NCBI GenBank assembly: GCA_030529545.1 | Contig: JAUMWR010000002.1 | Coordinates: forward strand, 113 to 64,112 | Direction of reading: 5' to 3' | Length of the DNA stretch: 64,000 bases | Source of the DNA: Buchananella hordeovulneris | Lineage (GTDB): Bacteria > Actinomycetota > Actinomycetes > Actinomycetales > Actinomycetaceae | Shown: piece by piece, positions 4,388-63,480 of the stretch | Numbering within the stretch: position 1 is the stretch's first letter | Layout: every line of letters starts with the position of its first letter | Made by a program: the position numbers and the translations under genes | The notes under the pieces: model-generated | Databases searched by the model: none | What the model was told of the DNA's origin: nothing | Seen by the model: the letters and a program-made list of their open reading frames with translations, nothing else

Positions 4388-4409
4388 GGCGCCGGCGGGA
4401 ACGTCGGCC
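4388..4409 (+). repeat. Copy of the dispersed motif GGCGCCGGCGGGAACGTCGGCC (intergenic, S10 leader region)
   Basis: This is an exact 19-nt match (GGCGCCGGCGGGAACGTCG) to the copy at 14528-14546. Confidence 0.8.
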
Positions 4410-4447
4410 ACCATACAACGACCCCGGCGGGCAGGCCGTACAGACAA

Positions 4448-4483
4448 AGATCCCCGGCGGGCGCTAGGCACCCACCGGGGATC
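4448..4483 (-). terminator. Candidate intrinsic terminator downstream of the FKBP gene
   Basis: A GATCCCCGG…CCGGGGATC stem is followed on the minus strand by CTTTGTCTG. Confidence 0.4.
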
Positions 4484-4496
4484 AGTCAGGCAGTGA

Positions 4497-4898
4497 TCAG
4501 AGCACGCCCACGATGTCGGTCACGAACACGAGAGTCGCGCCACCGGCGATGCCGGCCTGCGGCACGCCGCGCTCGCCGTAACCCAGCTCGGCCGGGATGG
4601 ACAGCAGCACGCGGGAGCCCACGCGCTGGCCCACCAGGCCCTCGTCCCAGCCGCGGATAACCTGGCCCACCCCAATCATGAAGGACAGTGGCTGGCCGCG
4701 GTCGAAGGAGTTGTCAAACACCTTGCCCGCCCAGGACTGGCCCAAGTAGTGGCACACGATGGTGTCCCCGGCCTCCACCACGGCGCCACCGCCCTGGTGC
4801 AGGACCTCCACCTGCAGGCCCTCGGGCGCAGCGCCCGCCGGGAAGGAAAGGGCGGGCTTGCTGCCGTACTCGCCGGTGACCGTGATGTTGGTGCTCAT
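4497..4898 (-). CDS. FKBP-type peptidyl-prolyl cis-trans isomerase
   Basis: The sequence MSTNITVTGEY…GDTIVCHYLGQSWAGKVFDNSFDRGQPLSFMIGVGQVIRGWDEGLVGQRVGSRVLLSIPAELGYGERG is an FKBP domain. The start is taken at the internal ATG 4898, which has a GGAGGAG Shine-Dalgarno sequence. The ORF-track start at 4988 is likely too long. Confidence 0.85.
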   Translation of the reverse strand: MSTNITVTGEYGSKPALSFPAGAAPEGLQVEVLHQGGGAVVEAGDTIVCHYLGQSWAGKVFDNSFDRGQPLSFMIGVGQVIRGWDEGLVGQRVGSRVLLSIPAELGYGERGVPQAGIAGGATLVFVTDIVGVL

Positions 4899-5049
4899 AT
4901 GGGCTCCTCCAGATTTCGCCAACCCGCCTGCTGCGGGCCAGCCTCCAGCGCAATTATTGGCCACGCGCCACCCAGGCACCAACCCCACGCACGCAAAAGC
5001 GCCGGGTGGGGCATCACTCCCCCACCCGGCGCCCTTAGCCGCTAGCGCG

Positions 5050-7965: not shown

Positions 7966-8004
7966 CCGGGCCGGGTGCGTGAGCGCCCGGCCCGGCCCCT
8001 TTTG
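7966..8004 (+). terminator. Intrinsic terminator after the ABC permease
   Basis: Stem CCGGGCCGGG / CCCGGCCCGG with loop TGCGTGAGCG, followed by CCCCTTTT. Confidence 0.7.
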
Positions 8005-8043
8005 GGGACGACGCTCCTCCGCCCGGCCCCTTTGCGACGCCCT

Positions 8044-8107
8044 TCCGCCTAGTCACATTTGGGAGGCGACGCCCCTCCGCCTAGTCACATTTGGGAGGCG
8101 ACGCCCC
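8044..8107 (+). repeat. 32-bp perfect tandem direct repeat (two full copies plus partial flanking copies) upstream of the sensor kinase
   Basis: TCCGCCTAGTCACATTTGGGAGGCGACGCCCC occupies 8044-8075 and again 8076-8107. Partial copies (…GCGACGCCCTTCCGCC and TCCGACC…) flank the pair. Confidence 0.9.
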
Positions 8108-8120
8108 TCCGACCCCGGTG

Positions 8121-8149: not shown

Positions 8150-9730
8150 TTGAGAGTGAAAATGCCTAGCTGGTTAACTGCCCCCGACCCGGCGAGCGCC
8201 GCCTGGCCCCGCCAGACCTCCTCCTGGTTCTGGCGCCTAACGAGCAACCCTGCTCTCACCGACGCCGTGGTGACGCTCGCCTTCGCCCTGCTGGCCGTGG
8301 TGGTGTGGACGTTTACTTCCTCCGCCGGGAGCCCGGCGCACAGCGAGCCGATGGCGGACCTGGCGCTGGTCATCACGTTCATCGTGGCGGTGGCGATCCG
8401 GCGCATTTTCCCCCCGCTTTCCCTGGCGCTGGCCACCATCGCACCGCTGGCGGTGAACCTGGTGGGCCTGTTCAGCGACGAGGAGCTGCCCCAGCCGTGG
8501 ATGCAGTCCGCGTTCGGCCCTGACTCCTTCCTGATAGGGCTGGCGGCGGTGGGCCTAATCCTCTTCACCATTTCCACGCTCTACCACGTGACCATTGCTT
8601 GGGCGGCCACCTTCCTGGCGATCGTGATCTACACGGCGGATACGTTCGCGCGCGGTTACCCGCCGCTGGCGATCGGTTTCGTGGTCACCCTGTACTCGAT
8701 GGCGCTCGCGATCGTGACGCTGGTGGGCATTTCGGTGCGCCTGCAGCGGCTGCGAATGGTGCAGTTGGAGCACTTGGCGGCGCGCCTGGCGTTGGAGCGC
8801 GACCAGCGCGAGCAATTGGCGGTCTCCGCCGAGCGCACCCGCATCGCCCGGGAGATGCACGACGTGTTAGCCCACTCGCTGGCGATCATCGTAACGATGG
8901 CGGACGGCGCGGCGGCCAACCTGGAGCGCAATCCCAAGATGGCGGCCATGGCGATTGAGCAGCTTTCTTCCACCGGCCGCGCCGCATTGGCGGACACGCG
9001 CCGCCTGGTGGGGGTGCTGCGCACCGAGCCCGCGACCGCCAACTCGCTGGTGGGAGCTCCGTTGGCCGACGTTGCCGCCAGCACCCCCCTGCCCGGCGCC
9101 GAGTTCGCGCCCGCGCCGGTCACGCCCCCGGTGGCCCCGCCCACTCCGAGCGGCGGCGGGCTCTTTGCCCGGGCGATCGAGAAGCTGGCCCGGGAGGCGC
9201 AGCCGGCCGCGCCCGCCCCGCAGCCAACGGTGGCGCCGCCGCCCGCGCCGGCCGCCGAGCGCGCGGTCCTGTTGGGAGAGCAGCTCGACAGTGCCGCCCC
9301 GCTGGGCCCGGCGCCCGCAGAGGAGGAGCTGGCGGAGCTGGTGGCCCAGTTCCGCGGCACCGGCTTGCCCATCCGGTTCGAGCGGGTGGGCGGAGCGCTG
9401 CCGGAGGACAAGGGGCTGCAGTTGGCCCTCTACCGGATCTGCCAGGAGGCGCTGACCAACATCCTGCGCTACTCCCCCAACAGCCCTTCGATCCTGGTGC
9501 AGCTCACGCGCTCCACGGGCACGGTGGAGCTGGTGGTGCGAAACACCGCCGGCTCCCACGCGACCCCTATGCGGGGCTCTGGCAAGGGGGTGGTGGGCAT
9601 GCAGGAGCGCGCCGCAGTTTATGGTGGACGCGTAGAAGCTGGACCGACGGAAGATGGCTGGCAAGTTCGCGCGATAATGCACTGGAACGAAGCCGAGAGC
9701 GAGGTAACCCCGTGGATGCTGCCGCGATGA
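8150..9730 (+). CDS. Sensor histidine kinase, HisKA_3 (NarL-type) family, with an N-terminal multi-TM sensor and a Pro/Ala-rich insertion before the ATPase domain
   Basis: Contains an H-box (ERTRIAREMHDVLAHSLAIIVTMADGA) and a C-terminal HATPase region (…ICQEALTNILRYSP…VRNTAG…). About 110 aa of A/P-rich low complexity separate them. The start may be the ATG at 8162 instead. Confidence 0.85.
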   Translation: MRVKMPSWLTAPDPASAAWPRQTSSWFWRLTSNPALTDAVVTLAFALLAVVVWTFTSSAGSPAHSEPMADLALVITFIVAVAIRRIFPPLSLALATIAPLAVNLVGLFSDEELPQPWMQSAFGPDSFLIGLAAVGLILFTISTLYHVTIAWAATFLAIVIYTADTFARGYPPLAIGFVVTLYSMALAIVTLVGISVRLQRLRMVQLEHLAARLALERDQREQLAVSAERTRIAREMHDVLAHSLAIIVTMADGAAANLERNPKMAAMAIEQLSSTGRAALADTRRLVGVLRTEPATANSLVGAPLADVAASTPLPGAEFAPAPVTPPVAPPTPSGGGLFARAIEKLAREAQPAAPAPQPTVAPPPAPAAERAVLLGEQLDSAAPLGPAPAEEELAELVAQFRGTGLPIRFERVGGALPEDKGLQLALYRICQEALTNILRYSPNSPSILVQLTRSTGTVELVVRNTAGSHATPMRGSGKGVVGMQERAAVYGGRVEAGPTEDGWQVRAIMHWNEAESEVTPWMLPR

Positions 9731-13888: not shown

Positions 13889-14929
13889 TCAGGCCCGGCG
13901 GCCCGCTACCGAGAGCGCGATGCCGTCCAGGATGTCGTGCTCGCTGGTGGTGACGTGGCGCAGCTTCCCGCCGCGCGCCTCCACGGCCGCAGCGATGCCG
14001 CTGACGACCTCGGACCACACGATTGCGCCGGCCCCGATCACGTCGCGCCGGGCCGGGTGCAGGAAGCCCATGGCCTCGCGCTCGGCGCGCGTGGAGAACA
14101 GCATCCGCTCACAGGAGTCCAGCACCTTCTCCACCGGCAGGCGGGCGCCGTTGATGCGCTCGCGCTCGTACTGCCCCAGGCCCAGGGCGTGGGCGGTCAG
14201 CGTCGTCACCGAGCCGGCCAATCCCACCAGTTCGTCCGTCTGCCCCAGCTCCAGGGCCGCGATCGCCGGGGCCAGTAGCGCCCGCACGTCCGCACGCGCG
14301 ACCGCGACGGCCGCCCGGCTGGGGCGGCCTGCGGCGTCCAGGCCGGCGGCCAGGTGCCGCTCGGTCATGCGCACGCAGCCCATGTCCAGGCTCTGCGCCG
14401 CCACCGGGGCCTCCACGCCGCGCACCAGCTCCGTGGAGCCGCCGCCGATGTCCACCACCGTGCGCTGACGGCCCCCTGCCGGGGCGCTCCCCTCGGCGCC
14501 GCCGCGCGGGGCGGCCGCGTCCTCACCGGCGCCGGCGGGAACGTCGTCCACCCCCAAAGCCACCAGGGCGCCAGAGAAGGACAGCGTGGCCTCCTCCTGG
14601 CCGCTAATCACCTCCGGCTCCAACCCCAGGCGGGCGCGAATCCCCTCCACGAACACGTCCCGATTGCGCGCATCCCGCGTGGCGGAGGTGGCCACAAAAC
14701 GAGCGGCCTCGACGCCGTGCTCGCGCATCAAGGCCCCGTAGTCTGCCGCCGCCGCGAACGTGCGCTCCAACGCCTGCGCGTCCAGCTCCCCCGTGGCGTC
14801 CACGCCGTGCCCAAGGCGCACAATGCGCATCAAACGGACGACGTCAACCAGCCGGCCATCGGCACCGACTTCGGAAATGAGCAGACGAATGGAGTTAGTT
14901 CCACAGTCAATAGCGGCAATACGGGTCAT
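13889..14929 (-). CDS. ppx: Ppx/GppA family exopolyphosphatase / guanosine pentaphosphate phosphohydrolase
   Basis: Begins MTRIAAIDCGTNSIRLLISEV… and contains …VVDIGGGSTELV…. It carries a Gly/Ala-rich insertion. The ATG is at 14929. Synteny eno-ftsB-DUF501-ppx matches Mycobacterium. Confidence 0.9.
   Translation of the reverse strand: MTRIAAIDCGTNSIRLLISEVGADGRLVDVVRLMRIVRLGHGVDATGELDAQALERTFAAAADYGALMREHGVEAARFVATSATRDARNRDVFVEGIRARLGLEPEVISGQEEATLSFSGALVALGVDDVPAGAGEDAAAPRGGAEGSAPAGGRQRTVVDIGGGSTELVRGVEAPVAAQSLDMGCVRMTERHLAAGLDAAGRPSRAAVAVARADVRALLAPAIAALELGQTDELVGLAGSVTTLTAHALGLGQYERERINGARLPVEKVLDSCERMLFSTRAEREAMGFLHPARRDVIGAGAIVWSEVVSGIAAAVEARGGKLRHVTTSEHDILDGIALSVAGRRA
14528..14549 (+). 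repeat. Copy of the dispersed motif GGCGCCGGCGGGAACGTCGTCC (inside ppx, antisense, encoding DDVPAGAGE)
   Basis: The copy is followed by CACCCCCAAAGCC. The copy at 28706-28739 shows related downstream flanks, and the copy at 57831-57865 is more weakly similar. Confidence 0.8.
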
Positions 14930-18917: not shown

Positions 18918-22679
<3,762 letters not shown>

Positions 22680-27876: not shown

Positions 27877-28875
27877 TTAGCCCTCAGCCACCACTGCGGA
27901 AGCCCGGGACAGCACCGGCTTGCCCCCGCTGGTGACGTTCAAAGTCACCTTGCCGCCCTCGCCGCGCTCGCCGGAGATCAGCAGCTCAGCACCCTGCACC
28001 GGGTCCACCACCACCATGCCGGAGAACGAGGCGCGCAGCTCCTTGACCTTGCCACAGCCCGCGTAGCTCTCCACCGCAGATGCCACCAGGGCCAGCGTCA
28101 GCATCCCGTGCGCGATCACGCCCGGCAGACCCGCGCCCTTAGCCACCGCCGGGTTGTGGTGAATCGGGTTGAAGTCCCGCGACGCCCCTGCGTAACGCAC
28201 CAGGTCAGTCAGGCTCAGCACTACCCGGAAGGCAAAATCGGCGCCCTCCACCTCCACGGCTTCCAACTCCGGCGGCGTCAGGCTCCACTCCGCCAGGCTC
28301 TGCCCGCTGGCCTGCCACGGCGCCACGTGCTGCGCCTCCTGCGCCCCCTCCGGGGCCGCAGTGCCCTCCGCACTCTCCGGGCCGGCCGTGCCAGCGGCGG
28401 TCCCCTGCTCCCCCGCCCCGGCGGCGGGCGCCGGCGGCATCACCGCCAGCGTCGACTCGACCACCGCGGCCAAGCCGCGCGGCCCGTGTACCTCCGTCCG
28501 GGACGCCAGCGTGCGCAGCGGACCGCGCTCCACCAGGCGCTTAACCCCCGGCAGGGCGGTCAGCTCATCGCCGGCCAGGATCGGCTCGTGCAAGACAATG
28601 GACTCGCTGCCGTGCAACACCCGGGAAAAGTCCACACCCAACTCCGGGTCCGCGATCAGCACCGCAGCGGCGCGCTGCGCCACGACGGCGGCGAACGTGG
28701 GGGCGGCCGGCGGAACGTCGTCCCCCACCCCGCCAACCGGGGCGGGCTCCCCCATCCCAGGGGTGGCCTTCCCCCACGGGCGCGCCGTGGCGGTGTTGAA
28801 GAAAGCCAGGTGCTCGGCACCCACGTGATAGGAGATCGGGGCGTACTTGCCGGCTACTGCGTTGTCCATACCCAC
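27877..28875 (-). CDS. Fused double hotdog-fold (MaoC-like) dehydratase, HadA/HadB-like, with N- and C-terminal halves joined by an Ala/Gly-rich linker
   Basis: The N-terminal half is UPF0336/HadA-like. The C-terminal half carries MaoC dehydratase motifs (…YAGASRDFNPIHHNPAVAKGAGLPGVIAHGMLTL…). In Mycobacterium, hadABC lie next to rpmG. Confidence 0.8.
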   Translation of the reverse strand: MGMDNAVAGKYAPISYHVGAEHLAFFNTATARPWGKATPGMGEPAPVGGVGDDVPPAAPTFAAVVAQRAAAVLIADPELGVDFSRVLHGSESIVLHEPILAGDELTALPGVKRLVERGPLRTLASRTEVHGPRGLAAVVESTLAVMPPAPAAGAGEQGTAAGTAGPESAEGTAAPEGAQEAQHVAPWQASGQSLAEWSLTPPELEAVEVEGADFAFRVVLSLTDLVRYAGASRDFNPIHHNPAVAKGAGLPGVIAHGMLTLALVASAVESYAGCGKVKELRASFSGMVVVDPVQGAELLISGERGEGGKVTLNVTSGGKPVLSRASAVVAEG

Positions 28876-36767: not shown

Positions 36768-38360
36768 CTACCGGGCTTTTGGTGGCCGACGTTGCCGCCC
36801 GCCGCCCCCTCTTGCCGCCGGCTGCGCGAGCTGACGGGCCCAAGGGGGCACACAGGCCGTCCTTACCGTGGCAATCGCCCCCTGACGGGCCCGTAGGCCC
36901 CCAGAAAGACGTTTTGGCCCGCCACCCAGCGGGTGGGGGGCCAAAACGCTTGCGGGGGGGGGGGGCGAGAGCAGCGGTCCGGCCCACACCACGCCGCGCG
37001 AGCTCGCGGTCATGGCCTCGCGGGAGACCACCTTGACGCGCTCGCGCCCGGCGGCCTCGCCCAGGTTGCGCTCGTACTCATCCAGGGTGATCCAGCCGTC
37101 GGAGGTGGTGTACTTAACGCCCCTCTCCTCCAGCCAGGGCAGGAGGGTCGCCGCTCCCCCGCGCTCCACGCCGTCGCCAGCCACCACGCCCGAGTCGACG
37201 TCGGCCAGCAGGTTGGCAATGGTCTCCTGGGCGTCGGACTTGGTGGATCCAATCAGTCCCACCGGCCCGCGCTTGATCCAGCCGGTCGCGTAGAGGCCGG
37301 CCACGTTCTGGGCTCCCTCTGCGGGACTCTCCACTACTCGGCCGCCCATGTTGGGGACCAGTCCGCGCTTGGCGTCGTACGGCACACCCTCCACCGGGGA
37401 GGAGAAGTAGCCGATCGCGCGGTAGACCTGGGAGACGGGCCAGTCGGTCATCTCGCCGGTGCCCTCGACGTTGCCGTCGCCGGTCAGGCGGGTGCGCTCG
37501 GTGCGCAGGCCCACCACGCGCCCATCCTCCCCCAGTACCTCGACCGGGGACTCAAACAGGTGGATGTGGATGCGTCGCGGCGCGGTGCGCTCCTCCGGCT
37601 CCACCATCGCGTAGTCAGTGAGGGTCTTGACCACCATCTTGGTCTGCTTAGAGCTGGCGATCGCCGCCTGCGAGCCCTCGTCGAACTCCATGTCCTCCTC
37701 ACGCACCACTACGTCCACGCCGGGCACGTGGCCCAGCTCGCGCAGCTCCAGCGGGGTGAACTTCACCTGGGCAGGGCCGCGCCGGCCAAAGACGTGGACG
37801 TCGGTGACGGTCTTGCGGCGCAGCACCTCCTCCACGTTCGCGGGGATCTCGGTGACCATGAGGTCATCGACGTGCTTGGCCAGGATGCGTGCCACGTCCA
37901 GGCCGACGTTGCCTACGCCCAGGACGGCGACGTGCTCGCCCTCAATGTTCCACTCGCGCGGGTAGTCCGGGTGGCCGTCGTACCAGGCCACAAAGTCGGC
38001 GGCGCCGTAGCAGCCCTCCAGGTCCACGCCCGGAATCTTGAGCGGGGCGTCCAGGTCGGAGCCGGTGGCGATGATGACCGCGTCGTAGTGCTCGCGCAGC
38101 TGCTCGATCGTGACGTCCTTGCCCACCTCGATGTTGCCGATCAGGTGCACCTCGCCCTTGGCGATGATGCCGTAGAGGGCGTTGATGATCTGCTTGATGC
38201 GCGGGTGGTCGGGGGCCACTCCGTAGCGCACCAGCCCGTAGGGGGCGGGCAGGCGCTCGAAGATGTCGATCTTCACGTCCCTACCGGACTTGGAGAGGAT
38301 GTCAGCCGCGTAGATGCCAGCCGGGCCGGCACCCACCACTGCTACGTTCAAAACGCTCAT
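36768..38360 (-). CDS. fprA: FAD-dependent NADPH:ferredoxin (adrenodoxin-type) reductase, FprA-like, with a ~70-aa low-complexity C-terminal extension read through a C12 homopolymer
   Basis: The N-terminus MSVLNVAVVGAGPAGIYAADIL… is an FAD Rossmann fold, with an NADP domain and …YATGWIKRGPVGLIGSTKSDAQET…. The FprA homology ends around residue 460, at the poly-C-encoded PPPP. The ORF then continues to 530 aa. Confidence 0.8.
   Translation of the reverse strand: MSVLNVAVVGAGPAGIYAADILSKSGRDVKIDIFERLPAPYGLVRYGVAPDHPRIKQIINALYGIIAKGEVHLIGNIEVGKDVTIEQLREHYDAVIIATGSDLDAPLKIPGVDLEGCYGAADFVAWYDGHPDYPREWNIEGEHVAVLGVGNVGLDVARILAKHVDDLMVTEIPANVEEVLRRKTVTDVHVFGRRGPAQVKFTPLELRELGHVPGVDVVVREEDMEFDEGSQAAIASSKQTKMVVKTLTDYAMVEPEERTAPRRIHIHLFESPVEVLGEDGRVVGLRTERTRLTGDGNVEGTGEMTDWPVSQVYRAIGYFSSPVEGVPYDAKRGLVPNMGGRVVESPAEGAQNVAGLYATGWIKRGPVGLIGSTKSDAQETIANLLADVDSGVVAGDGVERGGAATLLPWLEERGVKYTTSDGWITLDEYERNLGEAAGRERVKVVSREAMTASSRGVVWAGPLLSPPPPASVLAPHPLGGGPKRLSGGLRARQGAIATVRTACVPPWARQLAQPAARGGGGRQRRPPKAR
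36910..36965. repeat. Near-perfect 18-bp inverted repeat (36910-36948) immediately followed by a G12 homopolymer (36954-36965), inside the 3' end of the fprA ORF
   Basis: CGTTTTGGCCCGCCACCC-agc-GGGTGGGGGGCCAAAACG, then GCTTGC, then GGGGGGGGGGGG. Confidence 0.9.
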
Positions 38361-53726: not shown

Positions 53727-54466
53727 TAGCTGTAAGACCTCCGCGTGTCGGCCGGGGGAACGGTGGCGCCCTTGTACTCCACCGGGATACCGCCCAGCGG
53801 GTAGTCCTTGCGTTGCGGGTGGCCTACCCAGTCGTCCGGCATGGCCGTGCGGGTCAGGGACGGGTGGCCGGTGAAGACGATGCCCATGAGGTCCCAGGTC
53901 TCCCGCTCGTGCCAGTCGTTGGCCGGGTAGACGGAGACCACCGACGGGATGGTCGGGTCCTCGTCCGGGCAGGTGACCTCGAGGCGCAGCAGGCGGTTGT
54001 GCGTGACGGACATGAGGGCGTAGGCGGCGTGCAGCTCGCGGCCTTTGTCACCGGGGTAGTGCACGCCGTTGACGCCCAGGCACAGCTCGAAGCGCAGGTC
54101 CGGGTCGTCGCGCAGGATGGAGCACACCGTCACCACGTGCTCGCGCACGATGAAGATGGTCAGCTCACCGCGGTCCACCACGACGCGCTCGATCACGTCG
54201 GCCACGTTCAGGCCGCGCTCGACGAGCACCTCCTCCAGGACGTCGACGATCTCGTCAAAGTAGCCGCCGTAGGGGCGCTCGCTCTGGCCGGGCAGGCTCA
54301 CCACGCGCACCAGGCCGCCCATGCCGGAGGTGTCGGAGGAGCCGTGCACGCCAAACAGGCCGGTGCGTACCTCCAGGACCTCGCCCTCGGGGCGGCCGTG
54401 AGTGGGGGCAGCGGCGGCAACGTCGGCCACCACGGCACCCGCTTCCTGAATCTCGTTCTCGCTCAC
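53726..54466 (-). CDS. nuoC: NADH-quinone oxidoreductase subunit C
   Basis: The 246-aa protein belongs to the NuoC (30 kDa subunit) family. Confidence 0.93.
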
Positions 54467-55396: not shown

Positions 55397-55772
55397 CGGT
55401 TCTCCCTAGAGCGCGGATCTACGTTCTTAACTTTTGCGTGCGTTTTTGTGCACACCACCGGGGCTGTTCTGACACGAGTCGGCACAGTCCTGGCGAATGT
55501 CGAGACTACCGGCGCGGTTTTGCCATGCCTGCCCCGCCGGAGCGTAAACCGCTTTTTTGGCAATATTCGGGGCAATACTCCTTCTCGCGGGACGCCCTTG
55601 GTAGTCAACTTCTAGGCCTTTGGACCGTGATTTACGGCAAGGTGACTGCGCGTATTGCTCGCGCCACACTTTGTGGGCGCCTTTCCCCCTTTGGACGACG
55701 TTGCCACCCGGCCCCTTTCTCCTGGGGCCGGGCGGCAATTAGGCCAGCCTTGCCGGCGTTGGCGCGACCGGG

Positions 55773-56468: not shown

Positions 56469-56537
56469 GGGTCCAATTGTGGCAGGTGCAGCGCTGTGCC
56501 TGTAGCGGCGCCCTTTTTAGCGCTAGATTGGCCCGCG

Positions 56538-58007
56538 ATGATCGCTCCCACCATTCCCCAGCTTTGCGCCCGCACTCGCGAGGTCACCGGGCATCCGCTG
56601 TTGCCCGTCTCGCTCCTAGAGGCGCTGCCTGCCCAGTCCGGTTTGGCGTGGGTGCGCCGCGGCGAGGGCTTTGTGGGCGGCGGGCAGGTGGCGCGCCTGA
56701 GCGCCCGGGGCCCGCAGCGCTTTGCCGCCCTGGAGCGGCAGTGGCGCGCAGTGGTGGCCCTGGCGCAGGTGGACGACCAGGTGGGACTGCCCGGCAGCGG
56801 CCTGATCGCGGCCGGCTCTTTCGCCTTTACCGACACCTCCTCCTCCGAGTCCTTCCTCCTGGTGCCGCGCTTCGTGCTGGGCTGCCGCGAGGGCCGCTGG
56901 TGGTTTACCCACATTTGGGTGGCCGACGACGCCTCTGCGGCCGCCCCGCCCACGGCGGCCGACGGCGCCCCGGCCGGGGCGGAGTCCGCCGCTCTGGCCG
57001 GGACGGGCGCCCAGCTCGACGAGGAGCTGGCGGCGTTCCTGGCGCTGGGCCGCGCGCCCGTCGCTTCCCCCGGGGTGGTCTCCACCTCCAGCGGCGCGCA
57101 CCGGCGCTCCGAGTGGGCCGGGGTGGTGGAGGCGGCCATCGCCGCGATGGCGGCCGGGCGCGCCCAGAAGGTGGTGCTGGCCCGCGACCTGTACGTGCAC
57201 ACCTCTGCCCCGCTGGACCCCCGCCTGCCGCTGCGCTCGCTGGGCGCCAACTACGACGGCTGCTGGACCTTCCAGGTGGGACCGTGGCTGGGGGCCACCC
57301 CCGAGCTGCTGGTGCGCCTGGACCGAGGCCTGGTGGCGGCCCGCGTGCTGGCCGGCACCATCCAGCGCACCGGCGACGACGCGGCGGACCTGCTGCGCGC
57401 CGGCAACCTGGCCCGCTCCTCCAAGGACCTGGCCGAGCACGAGTTCGCGGTGGACTCCGTAGCTCAGGCGCTGCGCGGCTTCTGCGCCACCCTGAACGTG
57501 CCCGAGCAGCCCTTCGTGCTGCACCTGCCCAACGTCATGCACCTGGCCACCGACGTCACCGGCGTGCTCCGGGCCGGCGGGGCCACCTCCCTCTCCCTGG
57601 CCGGCGCCCTGCACCCCTCCGCCGCAGTGGGCGGCACGCCGCGCACCGCCGCCCTCGAGGTGATCGCGGAGCTAGAGGGCATGGACCGCGCCAACTACGC
57701 CGCCCCCGTGGGCTGGATGGACGCCGGCGGCGACGGCGAGTGGTGCATTGCGCTGCGCTGCGGCGTCATCGAGCCGCAGCCGCTCCCCCACTCCCCCGCC
57801 CAGAGCGCTGGCCGGGAGATGGGGGCGAACGGCGGGAACGTCGGCCCCCAAGACGCCCCCGCAGACCACGCCGCGCAGGCGGGCAGCACCATCCGCGTCT
57901 TCGCCGGCGGCGGCATCCTGCCGCAATCCTTGCCGCAGGCCGAGGTCGCGGAGACCAGCGCCAAGCTGGCCCCCATGCTCGGGGCGCTCGGGGTGCAAAC
58001 GGCCTAA
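56538..58007 (+). CDS. menF: Isochorismate synthase (menaquinone-specific, MenF) with a ~35-aa low-complexity insertion near the C-terminus
   Basis: The chorismate-binding C-terminal domain carries …LAGALHPSAAVGGTPRTAALEVIAELEGMDRANYAAPVGWMDAGGDGEWCIALRCG…RVFAGGGIL…. The ATG is at 56538. Confidence 0.88.
   Translation: MIAPTIPQLCARTREVTGHPLLPVSLLEALPAQSGLAWVRRGEGFVGGGQVARLSARGPQRFAALERQWRAVVALAQVDDQVGLPGSGLIAAGSFAFTDTSSSESFLLVPRFVLGCREGRWWFTHIWVADDASAAAPPTAADGAPAGAESAALAGTGAQLDEELAAFLALGRAPVASPGVVSTSSGAHRRSEWAGVVEAAIAAMAAGRAQKVVLARDLYVHTSAPLDPRLPLRSLGANYDGCWTFQVGPWLGATPELLVRLDRGLVAARVLAGTIQRTGDDAADLLRAGNLARSSKDLAEHEFAVDSVAQALRGFCATLNVPEQPFVLHLPNVMHLATDVTGVLRAGGATSLSLAGALHPSAAVGGTPRTAALEVIAELEGMDRANYAAPVGWMDAGGDGEWCIALRCGVIEPQPLPHSPAQSAGREMGANGGNVGPQDAPADHAAQAGSTIRVFAGGGILPQSLPQAEVAETSAKLAPMLGALGVQTA
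57831..57846 (+). repeat. Copy of the dispersed motif GGCGGGAACGTCGGCC (inside menF, encoding GGNVG within a low-complexity insertion)
   Basis: Exact core. Further copies lie at 21411-21432 (mfd), 25627-25644 (murB), 26447-26462 (murB start, reverse), 28706-28726 (hotdog gene), 61252-61268 and 61873-61889 (menD), 63005-63020 and 63062-63080 (menC, reverse), and 63458-63476 (intergenic). Confidence 0.8.
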
Positions 58008-60023: not shown

Positions 60024-60303
60024 GAGAGTGCCTTTCTGCCGTCACCGGTTGCTGGCGGTTACTTAACCACCGCAGCCTCACCCAATTCTGCAAGCTTTCT
60101 CAAAACATGCTGGAGACCACATTCGGCCCGGCGGGCTGCGCCCTCACCCGTCCAAGCGCGTGCTCTTCCCAGCGGGACAAACGCACGCCAGACCCGCACC
60201 CTTCCCGTACGAACTTGGCCAAAGGCGTACAGACTTGGCCCTACAGGGCGCTATAAGACCAAGGCCGAGCGCCTACGAGCACAGTCGAGCGGAATTGGGG
60301 GCG

Positions 60304-62304
60304 CTAAACCCCGCGCGCGGCCGCCAACGCCGCCTGCGCTGCCTGCGCCGCCACGCGGCTGAGCTCCTGCCCGGCACGGCGGGCGTCGCGCCCGGCGCAC
60401 GCGACCTCGACCACGCGCCGCCCCCGTGGGGAGGCCGCCAGGGCCGCGTCCAGCTCCGCCAGCGTTTCCACCCGCACGTAACCGCACTTGTAGGCGGTCG
60501 CGAGCGCCTCGATGTCCACGTCCTGCGGGGTGCCCCAGAAGCGCTCGTAGTGCTCGCCCACGCGCCCGTCGCCGGCCTCGAGTCCCGCAAAGATCGCACC
60601 GCCGACGTCGTTGAGGACGATCACGTCCAGGTCCACGTCGGCCTCGTGCGCGCCGCGCAGCAGAGAGCCGGCGTCGTGCAGGAAGGTCAGGTCGCCCACG
60701 ACGCACCGCACGCCACACCCCAGCGCCGCGCCGAGGCCCGCAGCGGTGGCGATGGTGCCGTCGATGCCGGCCAGGCCGCGGTTGGCGACCACGCTGCGGG
60801 AGGCGAGCACCCGCGCCGCGAGCGAGCTACCGCCTTGCCCGGCACCGCCCACCTCGCCGCCGGCCACCTCTCCGCACTGGGCCCCGGCCAGGAGGTCGAA
60901 GTAGCGGATTCCCGCCGACGCCCCGATGACCAGGTAGCTCCCGGAGCGCGCCTCAAGCGGGCGGCCCACCTCCGGGAGATCGCTCCCTTCGCTCAGGCCG
61001 CTCCCCTCCCCGGCTCCATCGCCCTCCCCGAGCTCGTCGCCCTCACCGAGCCCGCCGGCCCAGTCGGCCAGGTGCGCCCGCCAGACGCGCTCGCACGCGC
61101 CCTCGGAGCTCATCTGCCCGGCCAGGTGCGCCAGCAGCGCGTCCTGCGCCGCCCGCCCGGCCTCCCGCCAGGCCGCGGTCCACGCCGCGACTTCCGCGCG
61201 CTCGGTCTCCTTCACCATCGCCAGGGCGGCGGGGACCACGGCGCTGGCATTGGCGGCAACGTCGGTCCACCGGGCGCTGCGGTCGACCACGATCACCTCG
61301 ACGTCCGCGCGCGCCAGCAGGTGGGAGACGGGACGCGAGAGCGTGGGGTGGCCAAAGACCACCGCCTGCTTGATCCGCTGGCCCAGTTCCCCGGCCAGCA
61401 TGGCCCGGTACGGCCCCACGGCCAGATCCTCGCAGCGCACCCCCGAGGACGGCTCGGCAAAGAGCGGCAGGTTGCCGGCCAGCGCGAACAGCGCCGCGCC
61501 CCGCCCGGCGTCGCCGGCCACGACCACGCTGCCGGCCCCCACCTCGACTGGGGTGGGGACGACGCTCCCGCGCGCCGGCACCGGCCCCGCCGGCCGCCCG
61601 GCACCCAGCCGCTCAGACCCGACCGCTTCGTCGCCCGGCCAGTGCCACTCCCCCGCCTGGGGGTCCAGCAGCGGGTCGCGCAGCGCCACGTTCAGGTGGA
61701 CCGGACCAAAGGCGGCGCGCTCCTCCCAGCCCAGGCCCGCCAGGACGGAGAGCGGGTGGCTGGCAGGCGAGAACGGCTCACGCCCGGAGTCGGCCAGCCC
61801 CACCGGCGGCAGCACCCAGTTGCCCACGGCTGCGGCGGCCGCGCGAGGGATCACGCTGCCAAGCGGGGCGTCGGCGGGAACGTCGGCGGAAAACCGCACG
61901 GCGGAGCCAAAGAGGCCCACCTGGTCGGCGGTCTGGGAGGCACCGACGCCGCGCATCTCGTGGGGGCGGTCGGCGGTGAGCAGGATCAGGGGGATGCGGC
62001 TGTGGTGGGCCTCCAGCACGGCCGGGTGCAGGTTAGCCACGGCGGTGCCGGAGGTGACGACCAGGGCCACCAGCGGGGCGCGGGTGCCGCTTGCCAGCAG
62101 GGCGGCGCGCGCCAGCCCCAGCGCGTAGAAGCCAGCGCCGCGCTCGTCCAGGCGCACGTGGGCGCGCAACTTGCCTGCGGCCTCGGCCTGCGCCACCGCG
62201 AGCGCCAGCGGCCCGGAGCGGGACCCGGGGCAGACCACGACGTGCCCCACGCCGGCCTGCACCAGCCCAGCGATGATCCCGCGCGCCGTTTCGGTTGCGT
62301 TCAC
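60304..62304 (-). CDS. menD: 2-succinyl-5-enolpyruvyl-6-hydroxy-3-cyclohexene-1-carboxylate synthase (MenD), carrying a Gly/Glu/Asp-rich insertion
   Basis: The thiamine-diphosphate enzyme N-terminus is VNATETARGIIAGLVQAGVGHVVVCPGSRSGPL…. A GTG start at 62304 has a GGAGGAA RBS and overlaps the menC stop (GTGA). Confidence 0.9.
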   Translation of the reverse strand: MNATETARGIIAGLVQAGVGHVVVCPGSRSGPLALAVAQAEAAGKLRAHVRLDERGAGFYALGLARAALLASGTRAPLVALVVTSGTAVANLHPAVLEAHHSRIPLILLTADRPHEMRGVGASQTADQVGLFGSAVRFSADVPADAPLGSVIPRAAAAAVGNWVLPPVGLADSGREPFSPASHPLSVLAGLGWEERAAFGPVHLNVALRDPLLDPQAGEWHWPGDEAVGSERLGAGRPAGPVPARGSVVPTPVEVGAGSVVVAGDAGRGAALFALAGNLPLFAEPSSGVRCEDLAVGPYRAMLAGELGQRIKQAVVFGHPTLSRPVSHLLARADVEVIVVDRSARWTDVAANASAVVPAALAMVKETERAEVAAWTAAWREAGRAAQDALLAHLAGQMSSEGACERVWRAHLADWAGGLGEGDELGEGDGAGEGSGLSEGSDLPEVGRPLEARSGSYLVIGASAGIRYFDLLAGAQCGEVAGGEVGGAGQGGSSLAARVLASRSVVANRGLAGIDGTIATAAGLGAALGCGVRCVVGDLTFLHDAGSLLRGAHEADVDLDVIVLNDVGGAIFAGLEAGDGRVGEHYERFWGTPQDVDIEALATAYKCGYVRVETLAELDAALAASPRGRRVVEVACAGRDARRAGQELSRVAAQAAQAALAAARGV

Positions 62305-63446
62305 AGGTATTCCTCCATGCTCTCCAGGCGCGCTTGCCAGCGGGCGGCTAGGTCTTCGTTGGGGGTCAGGCGGGCCTGCACCCCGGAGGTGATCTCGGCG
62401 TAGCCGGGCAGGTCGGCCTCCCACAGGGCCGCGCCGCGCGGGGCAAGCGGGTTATCCACCACGTCCCCAGCTAACAGGCTGGCCGTGCCCAGGCCGGCGG
62501 GCCGCGCCACGGCCAGGCCCTCGGCAGCCGCGAGCGCGCTGGCCATGCGGTAGCCGGCGGCCAGGCCGATGCTCGTGTCGAGCGCGCTGGAGGCGATCGC
62601 GGGGATTCCCACCTGCGCCGCCACGCGCACCGCCGCCAGCGGCCCGCCCAGCGGGGCCGCCTTCAAAACCATGTAGTCGGCGGCGTCCTGGCGGGCCACC
62701 TCCAGCGGGTCGTCCGCGTGCCGGATCGACTCGTCGGCCGCGATCGGGCAGATTCTGGCCGCGCGCACCTGCGCCAGCTCGGCCACGCTGGGGCAGGGTT
62801 GCTCGCAGTACTCCAGCCCGCCGGCCGCCTCGTTGATCGCGGCCAGCGCCACCACCGCCTGGGCCGCGTCCCACGCCGCGTTCGCATCGACGCGAATGGC
62901 CGCCCCCGGCAGCGCCCGGCGCACGGCCGTCACGCGCGCCACGTCGTGCGCCAGCTCCTGCCCGGCCTGCGCCACCTTGATCTTGACGGCCCGGTACTCG
63001 CTTTGGCCGACGTTCCCGCCCGCCGCCTCGCTCCCCTGGCCTTTGTCCTCGCCAGTCTCTTGGCCGACGTTCCCTGCGCCGCCCCGATTCAGGACGCACT
63101 CTAGGTATGCCTCCAGCTCGGCCCCGTTCAGGGCCGGCACCGTCAGGTTGACCGGGACCAGCGGCGCGGCCGCAGGCAGGTCCCCCGCCACGCACGCCAG
63201 CGCGCTCTTGAGCCACTGGGCGCTGTGGGCGGGCCCGTAGTTCCAGAACGGGGCGCACTCGCCCCAGCCGGCGCCCGGCCCGGCCTCCGCCTCGCGGTCC
63301 TCCCCCGCCAGGAGCAGGCCCTCGCGCACGCTAATGCCCCTAAAGCGCACGCGCATGGGCACGGTGTAGGCGAACACCGCCCCCACTCCCCGCTCTCGCA
63401 GAAAGCTGGGCACCTGCAAGGCGGAGGTAGTGAGGGCGGTGTTCAT
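62301..63446 (-). CDS. menC: o-Succinylbenzoate synthase (MenC; enolase superfamily), with an internal duplicated GGNVGQ-containing insertion
   Basis: Belongs to the enolase-superfamily (…KIKV…, …IRVDANAAWD…, …ADES…). The start is taken at the ATG at 63446 (MNTALTT…). Confidence 0.85.
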   Translation of the reverse strand: MNTALTTSALQVPSFLRERGVGAVFAYTVPMRVRFRGISVREGLLLAGEDREAEAGPGAGWGECAPFWNYGPAHSAQWLKSALACVAGDLPAAAPLVPVNLTVPALNGAELEAYLECVLNRGGAGNVGQETGEDKGQGSEAAGGNVGQSEYRAVKIKVAQAGQELAHDVARVTAVRRALPGAAIRVDANAAWDAAQAVVALAAINEAAGGLEYCEQPCPSVAELAQVRAARICPIAADESIRHADDPLEVARQDAADYMVLKAAPLGGPLAAVRVAAQVGIPAIASSALDTSIGLAAGYRMASALAAAEGLAVARPAGLGTASLLAGDVVDNPLAPRGAALWEADLPGYAEITSGVQARLTPNEDLAARWQARLESMEEYL

Positions 63447-63480
63447 CTCAGAAAGACGCGGCGGAACGTCGGCGGCAAAT

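What the first reader, a model, noticed from the sequence alone, without database searches (positions are those of the whole stretch)
4388..63476. Dispersed, strand-biased 13-19-nt motif (GGCGCC)GGCGGGAACGTCG(G/T)CC present at least 12 times in coding and intergenic DNA
I found exact or near-exact copies by eye. They lie at 4388-4409 (intergenic), 14528-14549 (ppx), 21411-21432 (mfd), 25627-25644 (murB), 26447-26462 (murB start, reverse), 28706-28726 plus a degenerate neighbour at 28686-28702 (hotdog dehydratase), 57831-57846 (menF), 61252-61268 and 61873-61889 (menD), 63005-63020 and 63062-63080 (menC, reverse), and 63458-63476 (the 34-bp argF-menC spacer). A specific GC-rich 13-mer is expected roughly 0.01 times in 64 kb, so the excess is large. 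Ten of twelve copies have GGAACGTCG on the given + strand irrespective of gene orientation. Several share extended flanks: a 19-nt identity between 4388 and 14528, and the downstream flank CACCCCCAAAGCC after the 14528 copy shows related sequence after the 28706 copy and, more weakly, after the 57831 copy. In genes the motif always sits in the same codon phase. It encodes G-G-N-V-G when sense and D-V-P/A-A when antisense, the latter using the normally rare GTT valine codon. It coincides with low-complexity insertions absent from homologues in MenC, MenF, Ppx and the hotdog linker. Five copies cluster within 2.2 kb in menD, menC and the spacer. This looks like a genome-specific dispersed element rather than chance. 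Candidate explanations are a DNA uptake sequence, a replication-oriented skewed signal of the Chi/KOPS type, a protein-binding or modification site, or a remnant of a small in-frame-inserting element. I cannot tell which from this window.
Basis: seen in the sequence. Interest (0 to 1): 0.65.

Follow-up and report, generated by a model that had tools for sequence, protein, structure and literature searches.

The report
Dispersed uptake-signal-like DNA motif in Buchananella
A roughly 16-28-base DNA word (GGCGGS-AACGTCG-KCC) occurs about once every 4-5 kb, in both orientations, inside genes and between them, in this Buchananella-like actinobacterium and its closest relatives; it behaves like the DNA uptake sequences of Neisseria and Haemophilus, which are unknown in Gram-positive bacteria, but its function is untested.

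Summary
The motif is real. GGSAACGTCGKC occurs 13 times in the 64-kb window, against 2 in 333 kb of homologous high-GC actinobacterial loci and about 0.4 in shuffles. The full logo is gggg-s-g-c-s-GGCGGS-AACGTCG-KCC-A-m-c-A, with no similarity beyond about -14/+13.

It missed at least five minus-strand copies, and strong copies split 9+/6-.

The window is a MAG labelled B. hordeovulneris, but its closest relative is B. felis. The motif is also enriched in two felis-like contigs (5 in 21.9 kb) and more weakly in B. felis. It is absent from genuine B. hordeovulneris (42 kb), from 24 control loci (465 kb) and from 747 kb of metagenomic flanks.

Several copies are conserved between species inside otherwise unalignable or indel-rich DNA. 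Outgroup comparisons show copies built by point substitutions, some using rare T-ending codons. Coding copies share one codon register (14 of 16) and sit in poorly conserved linkers.

It is not a MITE, a hairpin, a Chi/KOPS signal or a protein repeat. The best reading (about 0.4) is an uptake-signal-like watermark kept up by a sequence-biased DNA process. Binding sites for an abundant chromosomal protein are the main rival. Function and genome-wide distribution could not be tested.

The parts
4394..4409 (+). Strong copy GGCGGGAACGTCGGCC. Intergenic, between the FKBP isomerase gene and the S10 ribosomal operon. Absent from B. felis.
   Evidence: Profile score 25.1 bits. Lies in a 32-nt local duplication that also carries a half-copy CGTCGGCCAC at about 4369. 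The region cannot be aligned with B. felis.
9064..9079 (-). Strong copy GGCGGCAACGTCGGCC, antisense in the histidine kinase gene (peptide L-A-D-V-A-A).
   Evidence: 23.0 bits. The core GGCCGACGTTGCCG is identical in B. felis inside an indel-rich, poorly aligned stretch. Frame.
14534..14549 (+). Strong copy GGCGGGAACGTCGTCC, antisense in ppx (V-D-D-V-P-A).
   Evidence: 20.1 bits. At about residue 140, next to the break in the Ppx-GppA Pfam match, which ends at residue 135. Frame.
21414..21429 (+). Strong copy GGCGGCAACGTCGTCC, antisense in mfd (A-D-D-V-A-A).
   Evidence: 25.0 bits. Lies in the hypervariable inter-domain linker of Mfd. Not present in contig L154.
25629..25644 (+). Strong copy GGCGGCAACGTCGGCC, antisense in murB (T-A-D-V-A-A-G).
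   Evidence: 19.7 bits. No indel. Stepwise origin: GAG GCC GCG GCG in B. hordeovulneris, GAC GCT GCC in L150/L154, GAC GTT GCC GCC GGC in the window.
28708..28723 (+). Copy CGGCGGAACGTCGTCC, antisense in the linker of the FAS1-DH/MaoC dehydratase (D-D-V-P-P-A).
   Evidence: 15.5 bits. Orthologous copies exist in L154 (AAC) and L150 (AGC).
36784..36799 (-). Strong copy GGCGGCAACGTCGGCC in the last 10 codons of the FAD oxidoreductase gene, at the junction of two convergent genes. Off-register.
   Evidence: 23.3 bits. A0 falls at codon position 2, in the C-terminal tail RGGGGRQRRPPKA*.
54413..54428 (+). Strong copy GGCGGCAACGTCGGCC, antisense in the N-terminal extension of nuoC (V-A-D-V-A-A).
   Evidence: 23.8 bits. 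B. felis has GGCGGCAGCGTCGACC at the same place, plus GAACGTCGGCCAC 18 nt upstream.
55693..55708 (-). Copy GGTGGCAACGTCGTCC, intergenic between nuoA and menF, next to a GC-rich hairpin.
   Evidence: 17.4 bits. B. felis keeps GGCAGCGTCGGCC here: core 13/16 identical against flanks 26/78. Sequence.
57831..57846 (+). Strong copy GGCGGGAACGTCGGCC, sense in menF (G-G-N-V-G).
   Evidence: 20.9 bits. Sits in the middle of an 81-nt indel relative to B. felis.
61873..61888 (+). Copy GGCGGGAACGTCGGCG, antisense in menD (S-A-D-V-P-A).
   Evidence: 20.4 bits. B. felis has TGCGGGCACGTCGGCG, 14/16 identical.
63005..63020 (-). Strong copy GGCGGGAACGTCGGCC, sense in menC (G-G-N-V-G).
   Evidence: 20.4 bits. 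Lies in a clade-specific MenC loop, with extra residues relative to B. felis.
63062..63077 (-). Copy GCAGGGAACGTCGGCC, sense in menC (A-G-N-V-G), 57 nt from the previous copy.
   Evidence: 17.6 bits. Lies in a 30-nt indel against B. felis.
63459..63474 (+). Copy CGGCGGAACGTCGGCG in the 34-bp argF-menC spacer.
   Evidence: 13.6 bits. B. felis has GGCGGAGCGTCGTCC followed by an extra 26-nt hairpin. The menC start at 63446 was read.
2319..2334 (+). Weak or candidate copy GGAGGGAACGTCGGTC, antisense in rplD (T-D-V-P-S).
   Evidence: 9.3 bits. B. felis has GGGGGTGTCGGTG, encoding T-D-T-P-S, so two substitutions separate the species. The direction of change is unknown.
20867..20882 (-). Weak copy CGCGGAACGTCGGCCA, sense in a conserved part of mfd (S-R-N-V-G-H).
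   Evidence: 9.1 bits. B. hordeovulneris has CGC ACC GTC GGC CAC; the window and L154 have CGG AAC GTC GGC CAC.
37901..37916 (-). Weak copy GTAGGCAACGTCGGCC, sense in the FAD oxidoreductase gene (G-V-G-N-V-G-L). Possibly ordinary coding sequence.
   Evidence: 8.3 bits. Frame.
61252..61267 (+). Near-match GGCGGCAACGTCGGTC, antisense in menD (W-T-D-V-A-A-N). Conserved coding sequence and probably not an independent member.
   Evidence: 11.2 bits. Identical in B. felis menD.
8005..8020 (-). AGC-variant copy GGAGGAGCGTCGTCCC, intergenic, just after a terminator-like hairpin and flanked by direct repeats GCCCGGCCCCTTT.
   Evidence: 5.6 bits with the AAC-trained profile. Absent from B. felis.
61556..61571 (-). 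AGC-variant copy GCGGGAGCGTCGTCCC, sense in menD and off-register.

Best explanation
The window carries a lineage-specific DNA-level watermark. It is a non-palindromic core of about 16 nt, GGCGGS-AACGTCG-KCC, with weaker G-rich 5' and A-rich 3' extensions, about 28 nt in all. It is scattered at roughly one copy per 4-5 kb in both orientations through genes and spacers.

SHOWN. The motif is 30- to 100-fold enriched over composition and over unrelated high-GC actinobacteria. It is shared, with a shifted consensus, by the closest relatives and is absent from a more distant congener. Some copies are conserved between species while their surroundings are not. Copies are built by point substitutions, including rare T-ending codons. 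Coding copies are confined to one codon register and to poorly conserved protein segments.

INFERRED. Some process that reads double- or single-stranded DNA regardless of transcription or replication direction continuously favours this word, and protein function limits where it can settle. The only known process with exactly this footprint is sequence-biased uptake of conspecific DNA during natural transformation followed by homologous recombination, as with DUS in Neisseriaceae and USS in Pasteurellaceae. I therefore propose that a surface DNA receptor of a competence machine in this Buchananella subclade prefers this word, so that fragments carrying it are over-transmitted.
For: ENRICHMENT..

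Independent check with a profile built from the 15 window copies, hits of at least 12 bits:
- 5 in 21.9 kb of relatives L150+L154;
- 2 in 42.4 kb of B. felis;
- 0 in 42.3 kb of genuine B. hordeovulneris;
- 0 in 464.5 kb of 24 control loci;
- 1 extra hit in 747 kb around 120 metagenomic exact matches.
One more copy lies in the 3 kb beyond the window end.

ORIENTATION. 9+/6-, and about 7 antisense to 5 sense relative to genes.

UNIT SIZE AND STRUCTURE. There is no similarity outside the motif. There is no conserved hairpin: fold z-scores run from -1.5 to +1.5 and there is no covariation.

CONSERVATION IN VARIABLE DNA. Core against flank identity is 13/16 vs 26/78 at 55693, 13/16 vs 33/78 at about 66385 and 14/16 vs 43/66 at 54413. 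At 9064 the core is identical inside an indel-rich region.

ORIGIN BY SUBSTITUTION. In mfd, CGC ACC GTC GGC CAC became CGG AAC GTC GGC CAC. In murB, GAG GCC GCG GCG became GAC GCT GCC and then GAC GTT GCC GCC GGC.

CODON USE. GTT is only 9.8% of Val codons, yet it is used in every antisense copy. Relatives keep the T, as GCT.

PLACEMENT. Copies lie at poorly conserved positions: the Mfd linker, a MenC loop, a MenF indel, the dehydratase linker and a variable MurB segment. There are none in the conserved nuo genes between 38 and 54 kb, nor in the lower-GC 5.9-kb adhesin gene.

DIALECT-LIKE SHIFT. Position +7 is G in 13 of 19 window copies but T in 12 of 16 copies in relatives (p=0.018). A1 is A in 16/19 against 8/16 (p=0.065).

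LITERATURE. Coding uptake sequences show the same pattern of frame bias, poorly conserved positions and absence from genes without homologues (PMC2817400). Species-specific dialects are described in PMC3630211. Natural transformation exists in Actinomycetota, in Micrococcus luteus through Flp/Tad pili (PMC4322843).
Against: No functional data of any kind. Competence of Buchananella is unknown.

No competence genes lie in this window. The rest of the genome could not be read.

No Gram-positive bacterium is known to take up DNA sequence-specifically; this statement rests on my own knowledge together with the absence of any such paper in the literature searches.

Density is 3-4 times lower than for DUS/USS. 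There are no inverted pairs forming terminators.

Only 67 kb of this genome and about 64-106 kb of relatives were available, all from syntenic regions, so genome-wide distribution is an extrapolation.

Three copies sit in indels (menF, and two in menC).

B. felis shows only weak enrichment with the window-trained profile.

The dialect statistics are modest, and the sites in relatives are partly orthologous and so not independent.

Pooled over all 13 site comparisons, core conservation is not significantly above flank conservation: 62% against 57%, p=0.26. The signal comes from a subset of sites.
Confidence: 0.4

Rival explanations
1. The copies are binding sites for an abundant lineage-specific chromosomal DNA-binding protein. 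Its role could be nucleoid organisation, segregation or condensin loading, self-marking for a defence system, or a global regulator. Ordinary selection would keep the sites in place.
For: Some sites are conserved across species inside divergent DNA. The motif works at the DNA level independently of orientation. The internal imperfect direct repeat GKCGG(S) with 9-nt spacing, read directly from the logo, could seat a tandem dimer.
Against: Known many-site chromosomal binding motifs such as parS, the Noc and SlmA sites and matS are palindromic and number tens per genome (my own knowledge). This motif is asymmetric and would number several hundred if the density holds. It is hard to see why selection for binding would build sites one substitution at a time inside ribosomal, mfd and murB coding sequence at the cost of rare codons. 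Turnover is rapid: three to five window copies are absent from B. felis.
Confidence: 0.25
2. The motif is a product of a sequence-specific repair, gene-conversion or modification-linked bias. Examples would be a very-short-patch-like repair enzyme or a modification system whose target overlaps GAAC/GGCC. Such a process would convert near-matches into the motif without any DNA uptake.
For: Copies arise by point substitutions from near-matches. The same position toggles A/G at five orthologous sites. The core contains GAAC and GGCC, which are known phosphorothioation targets in other bacteria; that is my own knowledge and was not tested.
Against: Known repair biases act on words of 4-6 nt, whereas the information here spans 16-28 nt. 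No such system is known with this specificity.
Confidence: 0.12
3. The copies are footprints or remnants of a very small element that inserts in frame, or of templated short insertions, spread by a copy-and-paste process.
For: The menF copy lies in an 81-nt indel and the two menC copies lie in 30-nt and 9-nt indels relative to B. felis. The intergenic copy at 8005-8020 is flanked by 13-nt direct repeats. The copy at 4394-4409 lies in a 32-nt duplication.
Against: Flanks outside about 28 nt are unrelated. The murB, mfd, nuoC, menD and histidine kinase copies lie in gap-free or orthologous sequence and were built by substitutions. No terminal repeats or consistent target duplications were seen. 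All these indels are in linkers that vary anyway.
Confidence: 0.06
4. The motif is a replication-oriented signal of the Chi or KOPS/AIMS type.
For: It is an over-represented, G-rich, non-palindromic word.
Against: The orientation split of 9+/6- rejects a 90% skew (p=0.002) and gives no support for a 75% skew. The information content spans 16-28 nt, against 5-8 nt for known Chi and KOPS (the comparison lengths are my own knowledge). GC skew is flat across the window.
Confidence: 0.04
5. The pattern comes from chance, base composition, or protein-level selection for G-G-N-V-G and A-D-V-P-A linker peptides.
For: The genome is 68% GC and rich in Gly/Ala/Pro linkers. Two listed copies are ordinary conserved coding sequence (61252, 28686).
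Against: Shuffles and 1.2 Mb of control DNA give essentially no copies. There are intergenic copies (4394, 55693, 63459, 8005). Two unrelated peptides are encoded by the two strands of one word. Rare codons are retained.
Confidence: 0.02

Closest known systems
DNA uptake sequences: DUS of Neisseriaceae (core GCCGTCTGAA) and USS of Pasteurellaceae (core AAGTGCGGT within about 30 nt)
   Same: A short asymmetric core with weaker extended flanks. Large over-representation. Both orientations. Copies in genes and spacers. Coding copies restricted to tolerated frames and poorly conserved residues. Accumulation by point mutation. Close relatives share the motif with consensus shifts, and more distant relatives lack it (PMC2817400; PMC3630211).
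   Different: The sequence is unrelated. The host is a high-GC Gram-positive bacterium with no outer membrane and no known ComP-type receptor. Density is about 1 per 4-5 kb rather than about 1 per kb. No inverted pairs act as terminators. Competence and uptake bias are completely untested.
Chi sites (RecBCD/AddAB) and KOPS/AIMS (FtsK)
   Same: Over-represented, G-rich, non-palindromic chromosomal words that are read as DNA.
   Different: Those words are 5-8 nt long and strongly co-oriented with replication. This motif is 16-28 nt long and shows no orientation bias.
REP/BIME, MITEs and Rickettsia palindromic elements (which insert in frame)
   Same: Dispersed repeats. Rickettsia palindromic elements also occur in frame inside genes and add peptide segments.
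   Different: Those elements are 35-150 nt long, palindromic or with terminal repeats, and spread by insertion. This unit is at most about 28 nt, has no conserved structure, and many copies were built by substitution.
HIP1 (GCGATCGC) of cyanobacteria
   Same: A highly over-represented short word found inside genes, conserved across related species, with an unresolved function.
   Different: HIP1 is a palindromic octamer at about 1 per kb. This motif is asymmetric and about twice as long.

Membership tests
DNA uptake sequences (DUS/USS) | A short motif strongly over-represented relative to composition | tested here: met
   13 copies against 0.4 in shuffles. 13 in 64 kb against 2 in 333 kb of control loci. 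0 profile hits in 465 kb of controls and 1 in 747 kb of metagenomic flanks.
DNA uptake sequences (DUS/USS) | Hundreds to thousands of copies spread over the whole chromosome | not testable with these tools
   Only 67 kb of this genome could be read. The genome is not in the searchable genome collection, and the Logan contigs are short.
DNA uptake sequences (DUS/USS) | Both orientations, with no strong strand or replichore bias | tested here: met
   9+/6- for strong copies and 4+/6- for AACGTCGGCC. Replichore position is unknown.
DNA uptake sequences (DUS/USS) | Coding copies in preferred reading frames and at poorly conserved residues; scarce in conserved or foreign genes | tested here: met
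   14 of 16 coding copies share one register. Copies lie in the Mfd linker, a MenC loop, a MenF indel, the dehydratase linker and a variable MurB segment. None lie in nuo genes between 38 and 54 kb or in the lower-GC adhesin gene. Compare PMC2817400.
DNA uptake sequences (DUS/USS) | Copies arise by point mutation of near-matches, not by transposition | tested here: met
   Stepwise substitutions in mfd and murB relative to the outgroup. Flanks are unrelated. Three copies in indels are exceptions.
DNA uptake sequences (DUS/USS) | Shared by close relatives with species-specific dialects | tested here: inconclusive
   The motif is present in L150, L154 and B. felis and absent from B. hordeovulneris. 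The consensus shift at +7 has p=0.018 and at A1 has p=0.065, on small and partly orthologous samples.
DNA uptake sequences (DUS/USS) | Host is naturally competent, uptake is biased towards the motif, and a dedicated receptor exists | not testable with these tools
   This needs culture experiments. No competence genes lie in the window.
DNA uptake sequences (DUS/USS) | Sequence related to known DUS or USS cores | tested here: not met
   The core GGCGGSAACGTCGKCC has no resemblance to GCCGTCTGAA or AAGTGCGGT. If it is an uptake sequence, it is an independent invention.
Chi / KOPS-type oriented signals | A word of 5-8 nt strongly co-oriented with replication | tested here: not met
   Information spans 16-28 nt. 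The 9+/6- split rejects a 90% skew, p=0.002.
REP / MITE / in-frame palindromic elements | A unit of at least 35 nt with a palindrome or terminal inverted repeats, spreading by insertion | tested here: not met
   No similarity beyond -9/+11. Fold z-scores from -1.5 to +1.5 and no covarying pairs. Copies originate by substitution.
Known RNA families | A match to an Rfam covariance model | tested here: not met
   Only four tRNAs in the window reach the gathering score.

The most novel reading that the evidence does not exclude
This would be the first DNA uptake signal sequence outside the Proteobacteria: a 16-28-nt watermark in a subclade of Buchananella (Actinomycetaceae, oral bacteria of dogs and cats). 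It would have evolved independently of DUS and USS and would be read by an unknown receptor of a Gram-positive, possibly Tad/Flp- or Com-pilus-based, competence machine, with species-level dialects.
Probability: 0.33. Interest if true: 0.85.

Novelty: new variant of a known kind. Interest (0 to 1): 0.62.

Why it matters
Sequence-specific DNA uptake is known only in two proteobacterial families, and how it evolves is still debated. An independent example would have three uses. It would show that self-preferring uptake can evolve without an outer membrane or a ComP-type pilin. It would offer a new receptor to look for. It would also give an easy genomic marker of natural transformation in Actinomycetaceae, a family with no known competent member.

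B. felis is cultured and has complete genomes, so the idea can be tested directly.

Even if uptake is not the mechanism, the motif matters. A 16-nt word that is written into ribosomal, repair and cell-wall genes at the cost of rare codons points to an unrecognised DNA-reading system in this clade.

Tried and rejected
1. Scans of public collections with the motif. They found no further members of the clade. They were useful only as a background control.

It showed that the window's own genome is not in that collection, and it gave B. felis plus 24 control loci. No whole-genome count was possible.

3. A supposed dialect in genuine B. hordeovulneris (CGCCCTAGTTGGCC) and in L150 (TCGCCCTTGGC). On inspection these are a clustered intergenic repeat and a protein-domain repeat of the adhesin gene. 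They are not counterparts of the motif.

4. A hairpin with a GNRA-like loop: GGCCGGCG-GSAA-CGTCGGCC. It is predicted at some copies, but it is no more stable than shuffles, only about 60% of cells pair, there is no covariation, and the common AGC variant breaks the loop. Rejected.

5. Longer shared flanks or a MITE. Rejected.

6. An ECF-sigma promoter reading, with GGAAC as -35. Nothing is conserved at the -10 distance. Rejected.

7. Pooled core-versus-flank conservation across all site pairs was not significant, 62% against 57%. The signal is carried by a subset of sites.

8. Two look-ups of ribosomal proteins with wrongly chosen start codons found nothing. The corrected L22 look-up succeeded.

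9. A literature search for the motif string found only unrelated primers and viral sequences.

Full report

Yes, with corrections. GGGAACGTCGGCC with at most one mismatch occurs 13 times, against 0.41 expected from dinucleotide-preserving shuffles. GGAACGTCG occurs 10 times against 0.88. An unbiased k-mer screen puts AACGTCGGCC and ACGTCGGCCA (10 copies each, about 0.45-0.5 expected) at the top of all dispersed over-represented 10-mers in the window.

I used homologous loci from 16 other actinobacteria with GC above 66% (333 kb) as an empirical null. There GGSAACGTCGKC occurs twice, against 13 times in the 64-kb window (Poisson p about 5e-16).

I aligned 15 strong copies in register. The resulting logo is g-g-g-g-s-g-c-s-GGCGGS-AACGTCG-KCC-A-m-c-A. 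The information is concentrated in 16 nt and fades by about -14 and +13. Outside -9/+11 the flanks are no more alike than shuffled sequence. The repeated unit is therefore about 20-28 nt, not part of a longer element.

The list was incomplete. It lacks:
- copies at 9064-9079(-), 36784-36799(-), 54413-54428(+) and 55693-55708(-);
- weaker copies at 2319(+), 20867(-) and 37901(-);
- AGC variants at 8005(-) and 61556(-).

With these added, the strand bias disappears. AACGTCGGCC is 4+/6- and the strong copies are 9+/6- (p=0.6). That split rejects a KOPS-like 90% skew (p=0.002).

Nearly every gene from 13.9 to 64 kb is on the minus strand.

Three listed copies need qualification:
- 26447-26462 is not a member (3.1 bits).
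- 28686-28702 is a near-match within codons for the conserved peptide APTFAAV.
- 61252-61268 is conserved menD coding sequence, identical in B. felis.

The gene annotations (ppx, mfd, murB, hotdog dehydratase, menF, menD, menC, nuo) are right.

3. WHOSE GENOME IS IT?

The exact MenC, MurB and Mfd proteins belong to a MAG that NCBI labels Buchananella hordeovulneris, on a 103.5-kb contig. Genuine B. hordeovulneris is only 50%, 69% and 73% identical for these three proteins. B. felis is closer: MenC 67%, Nuo proteins about 90%, DNA 78-84%.

The window is therefore an unnamed species near B. felis, in the Actinomycetaceae. Buchananella is reported from dog oral samples (PMC11165276). The genome itself is not in the searchable genome collection.

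I assembled the following comparison material:
- a 3-kb extension of the window (L147);
- B. felis, 42.4 kb (L122 and L277);
- two felis-like Logan contigs, L150 (9.2 kb) and L154 (12.7 kb);
- genuine B. hordeovulneris, 42.3 kb (L148 and L153);
- 24 other actinobacterial menD loci, 464.5 kb;
- 120 metagenomic loci, 747 kb, seeded by an exact 21-mer of the motif.

4. DISTRIBUTION ACROSS TAXA

I built an nhmmer profile from the 15 window copies and counted hits of at least 12 bits.

| Sequence set | Hits | Length |
|---|---|---|
| L150 + L154 | 5 | 21.9 kb |
| B. felis (L122 + L277) | 2 | 42.4 kb |
| Genuine B. hordeovulneris | 0 | 42.3 kb |
| 24 control loci | 0 | 464.5 kb |
| Metagenomic flanks (extra hits) | 1 | 747 kb |

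The untouched 3-kb extension of the window holds one more copy. So the motif is specific to a subclade of Buchananella and is not a by-product of high GC content.

In the relatives the consensus is shifted to GGCGGGCGG-A(A/G)CGTCG-TCCAYC.
- Position +7 is G in 13 of 19 window copies but T in 12 of 16 copies in relatives (p=0.018).
- The second A is A in 16 of 19 window copies against 8 of 16 in relatives (p=0.065).
This is suggestive of dialects, but the samples are small and partly orthologous.

5. HOW COPIES ARISE AND PERSIST

At orthologous positions several copies are conserved while their surroundings are not (unless stated).

| Site | Core identity | Flank identity |
|---|---|---|
| 55693 (intergenic) | 13/16 | 26/78 |
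| about 66385 | 13/16 | 33/78 |
| 54413 (nuoC N-terminal extension) | 14/16 | 43/66 |
| 61873 (menD) | 14/16 | 39/60 |
| 9064 (histidine kinase) | identical | indel-rich stretch |

Other copies are specific to the window species:
- 4394 and 8005, both intergenic;
- 57831, in an 81-nt indel of menF;
- 63005 and 63062, in 9-nt and 30-nt indels of a clade-specific MenC loop.
Pooled over all comparisons, the core is therefore not significantly better conserved than the flanks: 62% against 57%. There is both retention and turnover.

Outgroup comparisons show copies being written by point substitutions.
- In a conserved part of Mfd, B. hordeovulneris has CGC ACC GTC GGC CAC (R-T-V-G-H). The window and L154 have CGG AAC GTC GGC CAC (R-N-V-G-H).
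- In MurB the series runs GAG GCC GCG GCG (B. hordeovulneris), then GAC GCT GCC (L150/L154), then GAC GTT GCC GCC GGC (window), with no indel.
- In ribosomal protein L4 the window has GGGAACGTCGGTC where B. felis has GGGGGTGTCGGTG, that is D-V-P against D-T-P. The direction of that change is unknown.

All antisense copies use the Val codon GTT, which is only 9.8% of Val codons here. Relatives with the AGC variant keep the T as GCT. The synonymous change to the preferred GTC is not seen. That is pressure at the DNA level, not the protein level.

6. PLACEMENT IN GENES

Of 16 coding copies, 14 share one codon register (p about 1e-5). Sense copies read ...G-N-V-G... and antisense copies read ...x-D-V-(P/A)-A....

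No frame of the motif contains a stop codon, as can be read directly from the sequence. The restriction is best explained in two ways. First, this register keeps two of the three A/T bases at codon position 2. Second, the encoded peptides are small and linker-like. That explanation is inference.

Copies fall in poorly conserved segments:
- the hypervariable Mfd linker;
- the MenC loop;
- the dehydratase linker and a variable MurB stretch;
- the nuoC N-terminal extension;
- next to a break in the Ppx Pfam match.

There are none in the conserved nuo genes between 38 and 54 kb, nor in the lower-GC 5.9-kb DUF5979 adhesin gene.

This is the pattern described for uptake sequences in H. influenzae and N. 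meningitidis coding regions (PMC2817400).

7. WHAT IT IS NOT

- Not an RNA family. Only four tRNAs are found in the window.
- Not a hairpin. An imperfect GGCCGGCG-GSAA-CGTCGGCC stem-loop is predicted at some copies. Its fold z-scores run from -1.5 to +1.5, only about 60% of cells pair, there is no covariation, and the frequent AGC variant destroys the GNRA-like loop.
- Not a MITE or REP element.
- Not Chi or KOPS.
- Not a protein-level repeat. There are intergenic copies, the two strands encode two unrelated peptides, and rare codons are retained.
- Not described in the searchable literature.

8. MECHANISM

The following steps are shown:
- a DNA-level word that works independently of orientation;
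- enrichment of about 30- to 100-fold;
- restriction to one subclade;
- copies written by substitutions at the cost of rare codons;
- placement only where proteins tolerate it;
- partial conservation between species, with turnover.

The rest is inference. Some process that reads DNA favours this word. The only known process that leaves this complete footprint is biased uptake of conspecific DNA followed by recombination (DUS/USS; PMC2817400, PMC3630211). Natural transformation does exist in Actinomycetota, in Micrococcus luteus through Flp/Tad pili (PMC4322843). No uptake specificity is known in any Gram-positive bacterium.

I put this reading at about 0.4. The rivals are:
- sites for an abundant chromosomal DNA-binding protein (0.25);
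- a sequence-specific repair or modification bias (0.12);
- footprints of a tiny inserting element (0.06);
- an oriented Chi/KOPS signal (0.04);
- chance or protein-level selection (0.02).

9. MEMBERSHIP AND NOVELTY

The motif works like an uptake sequence in every feature I could test. Those features are over-representation, orientation, coding placement, mutational origin and clade distribution.

It is unrelated in sequence to DUS and USS. It is 3-4 times less dense. It forms no terminator pairs. The defining functional features (competence, uptake bias, a receptor) cannot be tested here. I therefore do not file it as a member of that family.

I rate it a new variant of a known kind. If the function were confirmed, it would be an independent invention in a new phylum.

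10. LIMITS

All sequence comes from one chromosomal neighbourhood of about 67 kb and its syntenic counterparts. Genome-wide density, replichore orientation and competence gene content are unknown. L154 may itself be B. felis, judging by GC content and neighbouring run accessions, so the relatives may represent two or three species rather than four.

Noticed in passing
whole window; proteins P0001, P0121, P0241: The source MAG is labelled Buchananella hordeovulneris at NCBI. Its MenC, MurB and Mfd are only 50%, 69% and 73% identical to the genuine species, and it is closer to B. felis (MenC 67%; an 86%-identical Mfd comes from a felis-like contig). It looks like an unnamed species with a wrong label.
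   Followed up: partly
L153:13123-13498 and L148:9795-9868 (genuine B. hordeovulneris): A different repeat with core CGCCCTAGTTGGCC, which contains the normally rare CTAG. It occurs in tight intergenic clusters as units of about 60-70 nt in both orientations, like a REP/BIME-type array. It is absent from the window and from B. felis.
   Followed up: partly
window 8034-8111: A near-perfect 32-nt tandem repeat (2.4 copies, 97% matches) with unit GCGACGCCCCTCCGCCTAGTCACATTTGGGAG. Each unit holds the inverted repeat GGAGG-CGACGCC-CCTCC. It lies in the intergenic region upstream of the histidine kinase gene, just after the AGC-variant motif copy.
   Followed up: no
window 29029-34926 (-): A 1965-aa surface protein with 13 DUF5979 repeats plus DUF7926 and DUF7601. 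Local GC drops to 0.62-0.67. It contains the repeated 12-mer GTCCAGTTGAAC (6 copies) and no copies of the motif. Orthologues in relatives differ greatly in length (1323 aa in L150).
   Followed up: partly
window 7968-7998 and 55706-55731; L122 around 8999: Intergenic motif copies lie directly beside GC-rich terminator-like hairpins: GGGCCGGG...CCCGGCCC, CCCGGCCCC...GGGGCCGGG, and in B. felis CCGGCC-GGGAA-GGCCGG. The two window intergenic copies also share a longer consensus, AAAGGGGCCGGG-N-GG-S-ARCGTCGTCC-AAAGGGG.
   Followed up: partly
window 60304-62424 (menD), 55797-58007 (menF), 62304-63446 (menC): The menaquinone enzymes are unusually long: MenD 706 aa and MenF 736 aa, while MenC has an extra loop of about 30 residues shared only with B. 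felis-group proteins. The men region holds the densest cluster of motif copies.
   Followed up: partly
window 4369-4431: A 32-nt imperfect tandem duplication (1.9 copies) contains the intergenic motif copy and, one period upstream, the half-copy CGTCGGCCAC.
   Followed up: no
window 232-594 (-) and L275-L277: Ribosomal protein L22 is 100% identical at the protein level between the window species and three B. felis samples, although the surrounding DNA is only about 84% identical.
   Followed up: no
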